A stretch of 64,000 bases of DNA from the NCBI GenBank assembly GCA_000002435.2, contig CM018793.1, one strand, 5' to 3'. Source of the stretch: Giardia intestinalis. Taxonomy: Eukaryota. The position numbers were made by a program, and so were the translations under genes. Within the stretch, counting starts at the first letter, position 1; the number at the start of each line of letters is the position of its first letter. The notes below the pieces were generated by a model. It did no database searches, was not told the DNA's origin, and saw only the letters and a list, made by a program, of their open reading frames with translations. Below are positions 33,251 to 45,530 of the stretch, in pieces.

Positions 33251-35829
33251 TTTTAATTTTGCCGAGCTGTTTCTCGCCGCATGCGGACGGCAGAGGTCGG
33301 GCCAGTAGATGGAGCGCCCCTTATCGCACCGGGCTGTGGTGCGTGGACGGGGCGAGTATGTCAATCCTGCTCGGGTGCATGCTGCGACAGTCGAAGACGA
33401 GGGTCTATGTTTCCACACATAAGGGAAGCAACAATTGAGTGCTGCAGCGCGCCCGGCCGCCTGTGCCGTGGCACCCCTGAGAAGGTGCTGCCCGACGATC
33501 ATGGCCAGCCCGTAGGCTAGTCGACACATCGTGGAAGCAACAGAACGTGAGAAGCATGAAAGGCCGGTCCATGGCACGAACCAGGATGCAGATGCTCCGT
33601 GCATCGGGGGATGGCACGCTGGCCTCGCGGCGGCAGAGCCGTCATCTGATCACTCATTTACTCTCCGCTTCACCGGGGCGGGGTTGTCCCCTGCTACCTG
33701 ACCAGGTCCTCCATGCGAGCCACCGCCGCCCCGGACAAGCCACTCCCCCCATGCACCGGCCGAGATCCAGAATCCGAAATCAGAAGGTCAGATGTCGTCC
33801 AGCTCCGACGGGGAGGATTGTGCCTCCTCCTCCAGGGTGGTAACGAATGCAGATGAGCGTCCGAGGCTGGTGGTGGGATCAGCCTCTCACACGCTAAGCT
33901 GACGCTCACCAGGATCATTGCCCGCTGGTCGAGATGGACCCACACGTGACCCATGTAAATCCCTCGACAAGAAATAGGAGTTGGGGTGCTTGGCTGGCAG
34001 AGGTGGACTGATCCTGCCCGCACCGGAGAGTAGTGGCCTGGGCCACCTGCCGGGTGTCTGCCACAGCAGTTGGCAGTGCCTGACACCCTCGAGTAGACAG
34101 GTGTCGTCTGCCGAGCAAGCCGACTTCGGTGAGCCAGTCCTAATCGCTCTTGGTGCCTCAGACGACGCCTCTCAGAGAGGTGGCCCTGGACCGACGCCTC
34201 GACAGACCGAAGCATCACCCCAAGTGTGTTGTGCAGTGCAGATGGAGCCCACACGTCACTGAGCCAGACACACTGCACAGAATGAGCGTCGACACGGTCT
34301 CGTGCTGGGTGACGGAGCACCTGCAAGAGCGCCCTGCGATCCATGAGCAGAGGGCCATACTTCTCCCCGACACAACACATGGGAGTACTCCATCGACATC
34401 CACGAATGCGTACCACAACCTCAAGATGGAGGCGTACGTGGAGCGCACCCTCCGATCATACTCGAGACTGATGGTATAATCCACGAGGAGACGAAGAGGC
34501 ACCCGAGGAACGGGGTAGACACCCGGGGTCGTGGCGTGCGATCTTCGTCATGGAGCACCAGGGCCCGGGCCACGTGGAGACCAGATCGCCGCGACAAACG
34601 CAAGGCCCTGAATAACGGGTGCCCACCAGTGCCAGACGATAGTTGACCCCGATGGGCCAGAGGAAGGGGGAACCCTAGAGGTAACGTGAGGAGCAGCGGC
34701 TTCCGGGGGACGGGGCACAGAGTCTTCTCCTGTCGGGATCGAGGGCATCTGATCTTCGGACTCTGGATTTTGATCTCAGCTGGTACACGAGCGAGAGATA
34801 CCCGCTTGCCCAGGACGGCAGTGGCTCGCACGGGAAATCACTCAGGTAGCGGGTGAGCCGTCATCTGAGCTCCCGGTCGACAGACTGCCTGGCCAGTACT
34901 GATATTATATGCCGCCCCATACATTATGCATTGAGAGAGTGGTACTGCACGAGGACGCAGTGGGGCGTCTTCTTCCTTGCTCTGGAGCCAACACCTGTTC
35001 ACTGTGAGGGCGCGGATGCTCAGAGCTTCCAGGGTCGTCTACATGTGCTGGTGAGACCGGGCGGGTAGCCTTCTGGCATTAGAGGCCTGCACAGGCCAAC
35101 AGGTCCCCTCCTTTGGTTCATGAGCCATGCACCGACGCTTTTCGAGAGGCGACCCGCTCCAAGCCAGGGAACTGCGGCGGAGCGTCCTTGTAGCCTGTTT
35201 GCTGAGGCGCTTCTTATCCCCATGATCACAGAGCTAGAGAAGGCAAGCCATACTCCCCGCTCGAAGCTCTGGGGGTAGAACACCAGTCACCAGACATGGC
35301 CACGGCCACAGCTGTTCTGGCGCCTATTCTATGGGCGCCGCCACACATGTCCTCGCTCTGTGCGCAGTAGCGGCCCAGTACACAAGGGCCTAAAGTAGGA
35401 ATGCCCCAGAGACTGCCGAGATAGCTCTTGGGGTCCTGTCTTCGGGTCCATCTCTGTCTTGATACTAGTGATGCTAGGGACAGAGCCGAGGAGGAAGCGC
35501 TTTACTGGGCTTGCTTCATCTTCTGATTTTTTCGGGTCTTGAGGAGTTGATCAAGCAGCAATAGACCGCGCCAACGAGCGAGCATCGCAGCGTCTGGCAG
35601 TAAGCAGCTCCAGCCCCTGACGCGTCTACTATCGGGTGGCCCGCCGCTCTCAAGTATTTGCAGCAACGACAGCAATAGGCAATCGCCGGCCTCTTTCGCG
35701 CGCACACCCTAGAGTGGCTTCTCAGAGGCACCCTCTGCGGCGTCCTTGCGCAGCAGTGGGCAGGGTCTCGGCAAGCTCTGCCTGCTAGGACGGTCGGGGC
35801 GTCTTCTCGGAGACTGATGGCCAGCTACC

Positions 35830-43200: not shown

Positions 43201-45530
43201 GACCCTGCCCACTGCTGCGCAAGGACGCCGCAGAGGGTGCCTCTGAGAAGCCACTCTAGGGTGTGCGCGCGAAAGAGGCCGGCGATTGCCTATTGCTGTC
43301 GTTGCTGCAAATACTTGAGAGCGGCGGGCCACCCGATAGTAGACGCGTCAGGGGCTGGAGCTGCTTACTGCCAGACGCTGCGATGCTCGCTCGTTGGCGC
43401 GGTCTATTGCTGCTTGATCAACTCCTCAAGACCCGAAAAAATCAGAAGATGAAGCAAGCCCAGTAAAGCGCTTCCTCCTCGGCTCTGTCCCTAGCATCAC
43501 TAGTATCAAGACAGAGATGGACCCGAAGACAGGACCCCAAGAGCTATCTCGGCAGTCTCTGGGGCATTCCTACTTTAGGCCCTTGTGTACTGGGCCGCTA
43601 CTGCGCACAGAGCGAGGACATGTGTGGCGGCGCCCATAGAATAGGCGCCAGAACAGCTGTGGCCGTGGCCATGTCTGGTGACTGGTGTTCTACCCCCAGA
43701 GCTTCGAGCGGGGAGTATGGCTTGCCTTCTCTAGCTCTGTGATCATGGGGATAAGAAGCGCCTCAGCAAACAGGCTACAAGGACGCTCCGCCGCAGTTCC
43801 CTGGCTTGGAGCGGGTCGCCTCTCGAAAAGCGTCGGTGCATGGCTCATGAACCAAAGGAGGGGACCTGTTGGCCTGTGCAGGCCTCTAATGCCAGAAGGC
43901 TACCCGCCCGGTCTCACCAGCACATGTAGACGACCCTGGAAGCTCTGAGCATCCGCGCCCTCACAGTGAACAGGTGTTGGCTCCAGAGCAAGGAAGAAGA
44001 CGCCCCACTGCGTCCTCGTGCAGTACCACTCTCTCAATGCATAATGTATGGGGCGGCATATAATATCAGTACTGGCCAGGCAGTCTGTCGACCGGGAGCT
44101 CAGATGACGGCTCACCCGCTACCTGAGTGATTTCCCGTGCGAGCCACTGCCGTCCTGGGCAAGCGGGTATCTCTCGCTCGTGTACCAGCTGAGATCAAAA
44201 TCCAGAGTCCGAAGATCAGATGCCCTCGATCCCGACAGGAGAAGACTCTGTGCCCCGTCCCCCGGAAGCCGCTGCTCCTCACGTTACCTCTAGGGTTCCC
44301 CCTTCCTCTGGCCCATCGGGGTCAACTATCGTCTGGCACTGGTGGGCACCCGTTATTCAGGGCCTTGCGTTTGTCGCGGCGATCTGGTCTCCACGTGGCC
44401 CGGGCCCTGGTGCTCCATGACGAAGATCGCACGCCACGACCCCGGGTGTCTACCCCGTTCCTCGGGTGCCTCTTCGTCTCCTCGTGGATTATACCATCAG
44501 TCTCGAGTATGATCGGAGGGTGCGCTCCACGTACGCCTCCATCTTGAGGTTGTGGTACGCATTCGTGGATGTCGATGGAGTACTCCCATGTGTTGTGTCG
44601 GGGAGAAGTATGGCCCTCTGCTCATGGATCGCAGGGCGCTCTTGCAGGTGCTCCGTCACCCAGCACGAGACCGTGTCGACGCTCATTCTGTGCAGTGTGT
44701 CTGGCTCAGTGACGTGTGGGCTCCATCTGCACTGCACAACACACTTGGGGTGATGCTTCGGTCTGTCGAGGCGTCGGTCCAGGGCCACCTCTCTGAGAGG
44801 CGTCGTCTGAGGCACCAAGAGCGATTAGGACTGGCTCACCGAAGTCGGCTTGCTCGGCAGACGACACCTGTCTACTCGAGGGTGTCAGGCACTGCCAACT
44901 GCTGTGGCAGACACCCGGCAGGTGGCCCAGGCCACTACTCTCCGGTGCGGGCAGGATCAGTCCACCTCTGCCAGCCAAGCACCCCAACTCCTATTTCTTG
45001 TCGAGGGATTTACATGGGTCACGTGTGGGTCCATCTCGACCAGCGGGCAATGATCCTGGTGAGCGTCAGCTTAGCGTGTGAGAGGCTGATCCCACCACCA
45101 GCCTCGGACGCTCATCTGCATTCGTTACCACCCTGGAGGAGGAGGCACAATCCTCCCCGTCGGAGCTGGACGACATCTGACCTTCTGATTTCGGATTCTG
45201 GATCTCGGCCGGTGCATGGGGGGAGTGGCTTGTCCGGGGCGGCGGTGGCTCGCATGGAGGACCTGGTCAGGTAGCAGGGGACAACCCCGCCCCGGTGAAG
45301 CGGAGAGTAAATGAGTGATCAGATGACGGCTCTGCCGCCGCGAGGCCAGCGTGCCATCCCCCGATGCACGGAGCATCTGCATCCTGGTTCGTGCCATGGA
45401 CCGGCCTTTCATGCTTCTCACGTTCTGTTGCTTCCACGATGTGTCGACTAGCCTACGGGCTGGCCATGATCGTCGGGCAGCACCTTCTCAGGGGTGCCAC
45501 GGCACAGGCGGCCGGGCGCGCTGCAGCACT
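40281..45530. repeat. right arm of the large inverted repeat (mirror of 33438-38687)
   Basis: See the left-arm entry. The outer boundary was verified at 45530, where ...gctgcagcact|atagag diverges from the left flank. Confidence 0.9.
40829..43138 (-). CDS. vsp: variant-specific surface protein (VSP), copy 2, identical to copy 1
   Basis: The 769-aa translation is identical to 35830..38139. It is convergent (tail-to-tail) with copy 1 and has the same CRGKA terminus and polyadenylation signal (40810-40816, minus strand). Probable true start at 42988 (or 43030). Confidence 0.9.
   Translation of the reverse strand: [769 protein letters not shown]

What the first reader, a model, noticed from the sequence alone, without database searches (positions are those of the whole stretch)
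33438..45530. 12.1-kb palindromic locus with two identical convergent VSP genes around a unique 1.6-kb spacer
Arms 33438-38687 and 40281-45530 are reverse complements. All six-frame ORFs are mirrored with identical translations, and the boundaries were checked base by base. Each arm carries a complete 769-aa CRGKA-terminated VSP plus 2.4 kb of upstream and 0.55 kb of downstream sequence. The genes are tail-to-tail. Perfect identity over 5.25 kb implies a very recent duplication, ongoing gene conversion, or an assembly artefact. A long perfect inverted repeat is also expected to be recombinogenic and prone to cruciform or hairpin formation. Tail-to-tail VSP pairs have been reported in Giardia genome analyses, but a whole-arm-identical 12-kb palindrome beside alpha-giardin deserves explicit confirmation.
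Basis: partly seen in the sequence, partly recalled or inferred. Interest (0 to 1): 0.75.

Follow-up and report, generated by a model that had tools for sequence, protein, structure and literature searches.

The report
Known inverted pair of Giardia VSP genes
This is a real 12-kb inverted duplication carrying two identical surface-antigen (VSP) genes of Giardia intestinalis WB, but this exact locus was already tabulated in the 2020 reference-genome paper, so it is ordinary.

Summary
Arms 33438-38687 and 40281-45530 are reverse complements: 5,250 nt with a single mismatch 5 nt from the inner edge. They surround a unique 1,593-nt spacer.

The window is chromosome 5 of Giardia intestinalis WB C6. 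The two genes are GL50803_0014586 and its duplicate d14586. Xu et al. 2020, Table 2, row 1 lists them as "-> <-, 719 aa, 2689 bp apart", and I measure exactly those values. The class of identical inverted VSP pairs was described by Adam et al. 2010. The real protein is 719 aa, starting at the ATG inside the TAATGTT initiator. The 769-aa figure is only a GTG-started ORF.

What I add is evidence on how the arms stay identical. Isolate DH (sub-assemblage AII) has both outer arm junctions at the same nucleotides. In the 478 nt that can be compared, 36 alignment columns have both WB arms differing jointly from both DH arms; the DH arms differ from each other at 2 columns and the WB arms at none. 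This indicates concerted evolution (arm-to-arm gene conversion), not a very recent duplication or an assembly artefact.

In P15 (assemblage E) the syntenic locus has an inverted repeat of the upstream region only. A single 719-aa VSP lies in its centre.

A conserved dynein-heavy-chain segment begins 3-5 nt outside the right arm. Its status is unresolved.

The parts
33438..38687 (.). Left arm of the inverted repeat (perfect over 33438-38682)
40281..45530 (.). Right arm of the inverted repeat (perfect over 40286-45530)
35980..38139 (+). VSP gene GL50803_0014586/d14586, left copy. 719 aa, 84 Cys (11.7 %), 29 CXXC, 2 GGCY, C-terminal hydrophobic segment plus CRGKA.
40829..42988 (-). VSP gene, right copy, with an identical translation
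35977..35983 (+). VSP initiator element TAATGTT containing the start codon (mirror copy at 42985-42991 on the - strand)
   Evidence: Adam 2010 Additional file 1 lists TAATGTT for gene 14586.
38152..38158 (+). Giardia polyadenylation-type signal AGTAAAT, 12 nt after the stop codon (mirror copy at 40810-40816 on the - strand)
   Evidence: The consensus AGTRAAY is from my own knowledge.
33438..35979 (.). Upstream part of the left arm, about 60 % G+C (mirror: 42989-45530). Evidence that it is non-coding rests on its largest ORF (240 aa), which has 7 frame-breaking indels between WB and DH and substitutions spread evenly over codon positions; no other ORF here was tested. WB-DH identity is only 90 % in the outer 1 kb, but 100 % in the outermost 147 nt.
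38140..38687 (.). 3' flank included in the arms, 548 nt (mirror: 40281-40828). This is within the 318-559 nt 3' divergence range reported for tail-to-tail pairs.
32363..33253 (-). Left neighbour: alpha-7.1 giardin (annexin). The annotated 388-aa version starts at 33529, so it overlaps the arm by 92 nt.
45533..45751 (+). Right neighbour: a dynein heavy chain (AAA6 lid) coding segment that starts 3-5 nt outside the arm and is preceded by TATAG
46030..52263 (-). Right-hand unique flank gene GL50803_00102056 (2,077 aa hypothetical protein)

Best explanation
This is the published inverted duplicate VSP pair GL50803_0014586 / GL50803_00d14586 on chromosome 5 of Giardia intestinalis WB C6. It is one of about a dozen tail-to-tail pairs of identical VSP genes in that genome.

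Each arm is a complete VSP expression unit: an upstream region that appears non-coding on the one ORF tested, an initiator with the ATG, a 719-aa CDS and a poly(A) signal, followed by 0.55 kb of 3' flank.

The structure is old. The two arms are kept identical within a genome by recombination between them (arm-to-arm gene conversion), as happens in other long palindromes. The practical result is two indistinguishable copies of one antigen gene. The arm extent can change over evolutionary time. In assemblage E only the upstream region is repeated and the VSP is single-copy in the centre. In assemblage A the repeat includes the VSP.

Shown here: the structure, the identity of the locus, both outer junctions in DH, joint divergence of the arms, and the P15 arrangement. 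Inferred: gene conversion as the homogenising process, and whether the arms grew in assemblage A or shrank in assemblage E.
For: Structure.

Identity of the locus:
- The 719-aa protein is exactly KAE8304846.1 and KAE8304847.1 (adjacent accessions) and XP_001704113.2 of WB C6, on a 4.02-Mb contig.
- Xu et al. 2020 Table 2 lists chr 5, 14586/d14586, -> <-, 719 aa, 2689 bp. I measure 40829-38139-1 = 2689.
- Adam et al. 2010 describe 14 identical inverted pairs with 2.2-3.8 kb between ORFs and abrupt 3' divergence at 318-559 nt. Here it is 543-548 nt.
- Gene 14586 appears there as vsp186 with 84 Cys, 29 CXXC and TAATGTT, as computed here.
- The VSP family is confirmed by Pfam PF03302, E = 3.6e-217.
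- VSP14586 protein has been detected by mass spectrometry.

Real and old:
- DH contig AHGT01000085 joins the alpha-7.1 giardin flank to the first 478 nt of the arm. DH contig AHGT01000002 joins the 102056 flank to the whole arm. The two DH copies are 99.6 % identical in inverted orientation, and their similarity ends at the nucleotides equivalent to WB 33438 and 45530.
- In a four-way alignment of 482 columns, 36 columns have WB_L = WB_R differing from DH_L = DH_R. DH_L differs from DH_R at 2 columns and WB_L from WB_R at 0.
- Flanking genes are 99.4 % identical between WB and DH. The upstream part of the arm is 94.7 % identical overall and 90.4 % in its outer 1 kb.
- In a SPAdes assembly of another sample the VSP contig has k-mer coverage 43, against 15 for a single-copy contig.
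- P15 contig ACVC01000195 holds the same neighbourhood. It has a 497-nt inverted repeat (98.8 %) that ends 263 nt upstream of a single orthologous 719-aa VSP.
Against: - Only the outer 478 nt of the DH left arm are available. In the DH assembly the sequence after the right-arm VSP stop codon is not the WB 3' flank. A complete palindrome in DH is therefore inferred, not seen.
- The P15 and DH assemblies are short-read or 454 drafts, which can mis-join at repeat edges.
- Perfect identity in the WB reference could be slightly overstated, because consensus polishing tends to homogenise repeats.
- No read-level data were available, so no conversion tract was observed directly.
Confidence: 0.85

Rival explanations
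1. A very recent, one-off inverted duplication in the WB lineage. On this view the arms are identical only because there has been no time to diverge, and no homogenising process is at work.
For: There are zero differences over 5,245 nt. Adam et al. 2010 suggested that the identical pairs arose by relatively recent duplication.
Against: DH, a different sub-assemblage, has both outer junctions at the same nucleotides. Its two arm copies share 36 differences from WB. P15 (assemblage E) already has an inverted repeat at this locus. A duplication private to WB cannot explain these observations.
Confidence: 0.08
2. An assembly artefact: a single VSP locus was mirrored, or two loci were collapsed, by the long-read assembler.
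For: Perfect long inverted repeats are a known failure mode of assemblers. Duplicated VSPs in the earlier WB assembly were questioned as artefacts.
Against: The two arms have different unique outer flanks in WB. Both flank-arm junctions recur in an independently sequenced and assembled isolate. The VSP contig has about 2.9-fold coverage in a third sample. The pair is reported in Xu 2020 and re-confirmed in a 2022 preprint. The first pair of this type, vsp1267, was characterised by cloning.
Confidence: 0.03
3. The palindrome has a regulatory role. Read-through from one VSP copy into the other would give a long hairpin RNA (a 2.2-kb stem) that feeds the Dicer/Argonaute pathway proposed to silence VSPs. 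This is not exclusive of the best explanation.
For: This rests on geometry only: identical convergent genes 2.7 kb apart. All twelve -> <- pairs in Xu 2020 lie 2,526-2,813 bp apart, which suggests a conserved module.
Against: Each copy has a poly(A) signal 12 nt after the stop codon. No transcript evidence for the spacer was obtained. VSP14586 is expressed as a protein, so the locus is not constitutively self-silencing. Most VSPs are unpaired.
Confidence: 0.05

Closest known systems
Identical inverted VSP pairs of Giardia WB (Adam et al. 2010, PMC2996952; Xu et al. 2020, PMC7000408, Table 2)
   Same: Everything. This locus is row 1 of that table: chr 5, 14586/d14586, -> <-, 719 aa, 2689 bp. 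The 3' divergence point (543-548 nt) and the inter-ORF distance fall within the published ranges.
   Different: Nothing essential. In 2010 gene 14586 (vsp186) was listed as a single unplaced gene, and the 5' extent of identity in tail-to-tail pairs was left blank. Here it is 2,542 nt, reaching to within 185 nt of the alpha-7.1 giardin ATG on one side and to within 3-5 nt of a dynein segment on the other.
vsp1267 pair (GL50803_112208/d112208), the first duplicated VSP described (cited)
   Same: Two identical ORFs, tail to tail, with about 2.6-3 kb between them.
   Different: A different VSP (596 aa) on a different chromosome.
Palindromes of the human Y chromosome, maintained by arm-to-arm gene conversion (own knowledge)
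   Same: Long, near-identical inverted arms around a unique spacer. The arms evolve in concert: they are identical within a lineage and diverged between lineages.
   Different: The scale is kilobases rather than megabases. The organism is an asexual-like tetraploid protist and the cargo is an antigen gene. Conversion is inferred here from 478 nt in one other isolate, not from population data.
Expansion and contraction of plastid inverted repeats (own knowledge)
   Same: The repeat boundary differs between lineages while the locus is conserved. The VSP is inside the arms in assemblage A and outside them in P15.
   Different: This is a nuclear locus. The direction of change is unknown, and the P15 evidence rests on one draft contig.

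Membership tests
Giardia variant-specific surface protein (VSP, Pfam PF03302) | Significant match to the VSP family profile | tested here: met
   PF03302, E = 3.6e-217, 721 bits against a cut-off of 31.4
Giardia variant-specific surface protein (VSP, Pfam PF03302) | Conserved C-terminal hydrophobic segment followed by the CRGKA tail | tested here: met
   ...[30 protein letters not shown]
Giardia variant-specific surface protein (VSP, Pfam PF03302) | About 11-12 % cysteine, with many CXXC motifs and GGCY motifs | tested here: met
   84 Cys (11.7 %), 29 CXXC, 2 GGCY. These equal the values for gene 14586 in Adam 2010 Additional file 1.
Giardia variant-specific surface protein (VSP, Pfam PF03302) | N-terminal signal peptide | not tested
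   [19 protein letters not shown] looks like a VSP signal peptide by eye. No predictor was run. Xu 2020 required a SignalP-positive start for every annotated VSP.
Giardia variant-specific surface protein (VSP, Pfam PF03302) | Initiator element (T/C)AATGTT spanning the start codon | tested here: met
   TAATGTT at 35977-35983
Identical inverted (tail-to-tail) VSP pair, as defined by Adam 2010 and Xu 2020 | Two VSP ORFs with identical sequence in convergent orientation | tested here: met
   The translations are identical and the genes are on opposite strands with stop codons facing each other.
Identical inverted (tail-to-tail) VSP pair, as defined by Adam 2010 and Xu 2020 | About 2.4-3.2 kb of DNA between the ORFs, with no genes listed between the -> <- pairs in Xu 2020 Table 2 | tested here: met
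   The distance is 2,689 nt. There is no protein-family or protein match in the spacer. The published range for -> <- pairs is 2,526-2,813.
Identical inverted (tail-to-tail) VSP pair, as defined by Adam 2010 and Xu 2020 | Flanks identical up to a point of abrupt divergence a few hundred nt 3' of the stop codon | tested here: met
   Divergence occurs 543-548 nt after the stop. The published range is 318-559.
Identical inverted (tail-to-tail) VSP pair, as defined by Adam 2010 and Xu 2020 | Being the catalogued pair 14586/d14586 | tested here: met
   Exact-sequence look-up gives KAE8304846.1 and KAE8304847.1 / XP_001704113.2. Length, orientation and distance match Table 2 row 1.
Palindrome homogenised by arm-to-arm gene conversion | Arms more alike within a genome than orthologous arms are between lineages | tested here: met
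   36 columns are shared-derived, against 2 (DH) and 0 (WB) columns that differ between arms, over 482 columns. Only the outer 478 nt could be tested.
Palindrome homogenised by arm-to-arm gene conversion | The same palindrome (same boundaries) present in a diverged lineage | tested here: inconclusive
   Both outer junctions are present in DH at the same nucleotides. The inner part of the DH structure is not assembled consistently. P15 has an inverted repeat, but with a different inner boundary.
Palindrome homogenised by arm-to-arm gene conversion | Direct observation of conversion tracts or of arm polymorphism in reads | not testable with these tools
   No read-level data are accessible.

The most novel reading that the evidence does not exclude
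The palindrome is a long-lived, actively homogenised structure that predates the split of assemblages A and E, and its arms have grown to engulf the VSP. In addition, its right arm ends 3-5 nt before a conserved dynein-heavy-chain coding segment that RNA-seq contigs join, at a TATAG acceptor, to a 2,500-aa dynein ORF. If that segment is a genuine trans-spliced exon, the outer edge of the arm (100 % conserved between WB and DH over 147 nt) would be the 3' half of a split intron, present in two inverted copies. VSP palindromes would then be implicated in the fragmentation of Giardia dynein genes.
Probability: 0.1. Interest if true: 0.6.

Novelty: already known. Interest (0 to 1): 0.2.

Why it matters
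The locus itself adds nothing new, because it is catalogued in the reference-genome paper.

The comparative result is a small, testable contribution to a point the literature calls "cryptic" (Adam 2010): why identical VSPs occur only as inverted pairs. If the arms are homogenised by gene conversion, and the repeat boundary can move across a VSP, then these pairs are stable palindromes rather than fresh duplicates. That affects three things:
- how VSP copy number and repertoire evolution are interpreted;
- how reads are assigned to paired VSPs in expression studies;
- where assemblies of other isolates should be expected to break.

Tried and rejected
- **Residual palindromy in the spacer.** A shared 10-mer (TGGGGTGATC) lies about 19-20 nt inside both inner edges. 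However, a local alignment of the two spacer halves scores below the shuffled mean (z = -0.9). The global-alignment z-scores of 3-5 were not robust. I rejected this.
- **Pseudogenes in the spacer or upstream region.** A tblastn search with 113 fetched proteins (VSPs, giardins, 102056, dynein) found nothing outside the known genes. Pfam found nothing for the 162-aa ORF at 40002-40490, which straddles the spacer and the right arm, or for the 240-aa arm ORF.
- **The 240-aa arm ORF as a gene.** I rejected this: there are 7 frame-breaking indels between WB and DH, and the substitutions by codon position are 32/23/31.
- **Fetching the WB chromosome around other VSP pairs.** The aim was to test whether spacers are homologous between pairs. 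Exact look-ups of WB 2020 proteins P0056, P0034 and P0073 were not on record, so the test could not be done. A 2022 preprint reports near-identical intergenic regions between some pairs.
- **P15 alpha-7.2 giardin contig (L006).** Only the giardin gene matches, so it is not the syntenic locus.
- **P15 central 1.27 kb against the WB 3' flank and spacer.** There is no detectable similarity by blastn or nhmmer. Homology of the spacers is therefore unknown.
- **DH sequence downstream of the VSP.** The 3' flanks of two DH VSP loci (L001, L002) are swapped relative to another AII-like sample (L003-L005). This is either a chimeric join at the conserved VSP 3' end or a real exchange. I did not use it as evidence.
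- **Assemblage B (L018).** The contig ends 691 nt beyond the 102056 orthologue, and only a 14-aa VSP transmembrane-like match (E = 0.03) sits at its very end. This is too weak to polarise the history.
- **Papers on Giardia split dynein genes.** PMC3181519 and PMC5425688 are not held.

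
Full report
**1.

A repeat search over 30000-49000 gives a single inverted repeat: arms 33438-38687 and 40281-45530, 5,250 nt, with 1,593 nt between them. A direct comparison shows one mismatch (38683 against 40285), 5 nt from the inner edge. The strictly perfect arms are therefore 5,245 nt. Beyond both the outer and inner edges the sequences are unrelated. 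The window contains no N runs. All ORFs are mirrored, as they must be.

**2. Identity of the sequence**

- The arm ORF ends in ...[12 protein letters not shown] and matches Pfam VSP (PF03302) at E = 3.6e-217.
The real start is the ATG at 35980, embedded in the VSP initiator TAATGTT. This gives 719 aa with 84 Cys, 29 CXXC and 2 GGCY.
- A poly(A)-type signal, AGTAAAT, lies 12 nt after the stop codon.
- An exact-sequence look-up shows that the 719-aa protein is KAE8304846.1 and KAE8304847.1 (adjacent accessions) and XP_001704113.2, "VSP with INR", of Giardia intestinalis ATCC 50803 / WB C6, on a 4.02-Mb contig.
- The left neighbour is 100 % identical to WB alpha-7.1 giardin, KAE8304844.1.
- The right neighbour is GL50803_00102056, KAE8304850.1.

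**3. The locus is already published**

- Xu et al. 2020 (PMC7000408), Table 2, first row: chromosome 5, genes 14586 and d14586, arrangement -> <-, 719 aa, distance 2689 bp. The distance between the two stop codons here is 40829-38139-1 = 2689.
- Adam et al. 2010 (PMC2996952) defined the class. They found 14 pairs of identical VSP genes, always as inverted pairs, with 2.2-3.8 kb between ORFs and identity ending abruptly 318-559 nt 3' of the stop codon in tail-to-tail pairs. Here that point is 543-548 nt.
- In 2010, gene 14586 (vsp186: 733 aa from an upstream ATG, 84 Cys, 29 CXXC, TAATGTT) was listed as a single gene with no chromosome assignment. The authors warned that pairs could have been missed because they terminate contigs.
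- A 2022 preprint re-confirmed 20 duplicated pairs, 13 of them tail-to-tail.
- VSP14586 has been detected as a surface antigen by mass spectrometry.

**4. Content of the arms and spacer**

Apart from the VSP unit, each arm holds 2,542 nt of upstream sequence at about 60 % G+C.
- Its largest ORF (240 aa) has no family match. Between WB and DH it has 7 frame-breaking indels and substitutions spread evenly over codon positions (32/23/31). It is therefore not coding.
- By contrast, the VSP CDS shows 8/3/36 substitutions by codon position and only 10 amino-acid changes between the two isolates.

The spacer is unique, 61.5 % G+C, without internal repeats. A hint of residual palindromy at its ends did not survive a shuffling control.

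**5. Recent duplication, gene conversion or artefact?**

- L002 carries GL50803_102056, the junction, and the whole right arm up to the VSP stop codon.
- L007 carries the IQ-motif gene, the ankyrin gene, alpha-7.1 giardin and then 478 nt of arm before the contig ends.
- These two DH arm sequences are 99.6 % identical in inverted orientation. Their similarity stops at the nucleotides equivalent to WB 33438 and 45530.
- In a four-way alignment of 482 columns, 36 columns have both WB arms differing jointly from both DH arms. The DH arms differ from each other at 2 columns and the WB arms at none.
- Flanking genes are 99.4 % identical between the isolates. The arm upstream region is 94.7 % identical overall and 90.4 % in its outer 1 kb.

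The inverted duplication therefore predates the AI/AII split, and the arms have evolved in concert. This is the signature of arm-to-arm gene conversion. It also argues against an assembly artefact.

There is one further piece of independent support. In a SPAdes assembly of another sample, the contig holding this VSP has k-mer coverage 43, against 15 for a single-copy contig from the same sample.

Caveats:
- Only 478 nt of the DH left arm are available.
- The DH assembly attaches a different 3' flank to the right-arm VSP. That flank is swapped with the flank of a paralogous VSP locus when compared with another AII-like sample. This is probably a mis-join at the conserved VSP 3' end.

**6. An older layer in assemblage E**

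P15 contig ACVC01000195 (L019) holds the 3' end of the 102056 orthologue, the same dynein-like segment, and an arm-like upstream region at 70-75 % identity.
- It contains a 497-nt inverted repeat (12637-13129 against 16823-17319, 98.8 %) that runs into the contig end.
- The inner edge of that repeat is 263 nt upstream of the ATG of a single 719-aa VSP. This VSP is about 81 % identical in DNA to 14586 and lies in the 3.7-kb centre. The other arm is followed by 1.27 kb of unrelated sequence, with no VSP.

At face value, an inverted repeat at this locus predates the A/E split, and only in assemblage A does it include the VSP. Two histories are possible: the arms expanded in A, or one VSP cassette was lost in E. 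These data cannot decide between them. The assemblage B contig ends too early.

The P15 inner edge corresponds to about WB 35710. The high-coverage VSP contig of the AII-like sample starts at 35708. This suggests a recurrent cassette boundary about 270 nt upstream of the ATG.

**7. A dynein segment at the right arm boundary (noticed in passing, unresolved)**

- From 45533/45535 the + strand encodes a piece of a dynein heavy chain: Pfam AAA_lid_11, profile positions 2-51.
- Logan contigs join a 2,500-aa dynein ORF (AAA1 to AAA6) to the window exactly at 45533, after TATAG, and then run colinear with the window into 102056. Three of these contigs come from SRR26421xx accessions that fall in the range of the Ansell RNA-seq series (first accession SRR2642193 listed); their data type was not confirmed.
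- Those contigs carry 4 or 8 differences from the window, all transitions and all between 45549 and 45678. There are none elsewhere in 7-11 kb. Three other contigs stop at 45751.
- WB and DH have no differences over 45384-45829, a stretch that includes the outermost 147 nt of the arm.
- WB and P15 differ in the segment by about 21 synonymous and 5 non-synonymous changes (my reading of the alignment).

Two readings fit:
- (a) The segment is a partial duplicate of a dynein exon located elsewhere, kept similar by gene conversion. The variant bases favour this.
- (b) It is itself a trans-spliced exon, in which case the arm edge would be a half-intron.

Giardia outer-arm dynein genes are known to be split and trans-spliced.

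**8. Verdict**

The finding is real, correctly described apart from small details, and already known. My contribution is limited to three points: evidence that the arms evolve in concert, the different repeat extent in assemblage E, and the dynein segment next to the arm.

Noticed in passing
window 45533-45751 (perhaps to about 45795), + strand: A dynein-heavy-chain (AAA6 lid) coding segment begins 3-5 nt outside the right arm, after TATAG. Logan contigs, some probably RNA-seq-derived (L008, L010-L013), join a 2,500-aa dynein ORF to it exactly at 45533, but carry 4-8 transitions within the segment. It is 100 % conserved between WB and DH and evolves mostly synonymously between WB and P15. It is either a trans-spliced exon or a partial duplicate kept similar by gene conversion.
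   Followed up: partly
window 45384-45829 (mirror of the arm part: 33438-33584): A block of 446 nt has zero WB-DH differences. It spans the outermost 147 nt of the arm, the dynein segment and 78 nt beyond. The rest of the outer 1 kb of the arm is only about 90 % identical.
   Followed up: partly
L019 (P15, ACVC01000195) 12637-13129 and 16823-17319; VSP at 14401-16560 (-): The assemblage E syntenic locus has an inverted repeat of the VSP upstream region only (98.8 %). One orthologous 719-aa VSP lies in the unique centre, and 1.27 kb of unrelated sequence lies where assemblage A has the second copy.
   Followed up: yes
window 33438-33529 (mirror 45439-45530): The annotated 388-aa alpha-7.1 giardin (KAE8304844.1) starts 92 nt inside the left arm, although the annexin-like protein is only 296 aa from the ATG at 33253. 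WB alpha-7.2 giardin (KAE8304773.1) shares this extension at 97.9 % identity. The arm-edge sequence therefore also seems to lie upstream of alpha-7.2 giardin elsewhere on chr 5. A DH paralogue contig ends exactly at the equivalent of 33436.
   Followed up: partly
L001 12254-12975 and L002 12325-13145 (DH), compared with L003, L004 and L005: In DH the 3' flanks of VSP 14586 and of a 91 %-identical paralogue (744 aa, next to a phospholipid ATPase gene) are exchanged relative to another AII-like sample and to WB. The switch point is just after the poly(A) signal. This is either a chimeric assembly or a real crossover at the conserved VSP 3' end.
   Followed up: partly
L005 (ERZ19219916 NODE_13862), equivalent to window 35708-38285: The short-read contig holding this VSP has 2.9-fold the coverage of a single-copy contig. 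It breaks 272 nt upstream of the ATG, at almost the same position as the inner edge of the P15 repeat (263 nt upstream).
   Followed up: no
L018 (assemblage B, JXTI01000044) 16925-16966, - strand: There is a 14-aa match to the VSP transmembrane segment (ISVAVITVVGGLVG, E = 0.03) at the very end of the contig, about 650 nt beyond the 102056 orthologue. No dynein segment is detectable in between. This is weak evidence.
   Followed up: partly
window 33711-33833 against 34705-34833 (mirrors in the right arm); also L006 (P15) 4197-4284 against 7682-7769: A weak internal inverted repeat (about 70 %, 130 nt) lies inside each arm. In P15, a short arm-like sequence is present as an inverted pair flanking a NEK kinase gene at an unrelated locus.
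   Followed up: no
window 38590-38680 and 40288-40378; tandem repeat at 40310-40334: A G-rich tract (C-rich on the mirror copy), with 2.5 copies of CAGCCCCCAC, lies immediately inside the inner edges of the arms.
   Followed up: no
Xu 2020 Table 2: All twelve -> <- VSP pairs in WB have inter-ORF distances within 2,526-2,813 bp. This narrow range suggests a shared 3'-flank and spacer module. I could not test this because the other loci could not be fetched.
   Followed up: no
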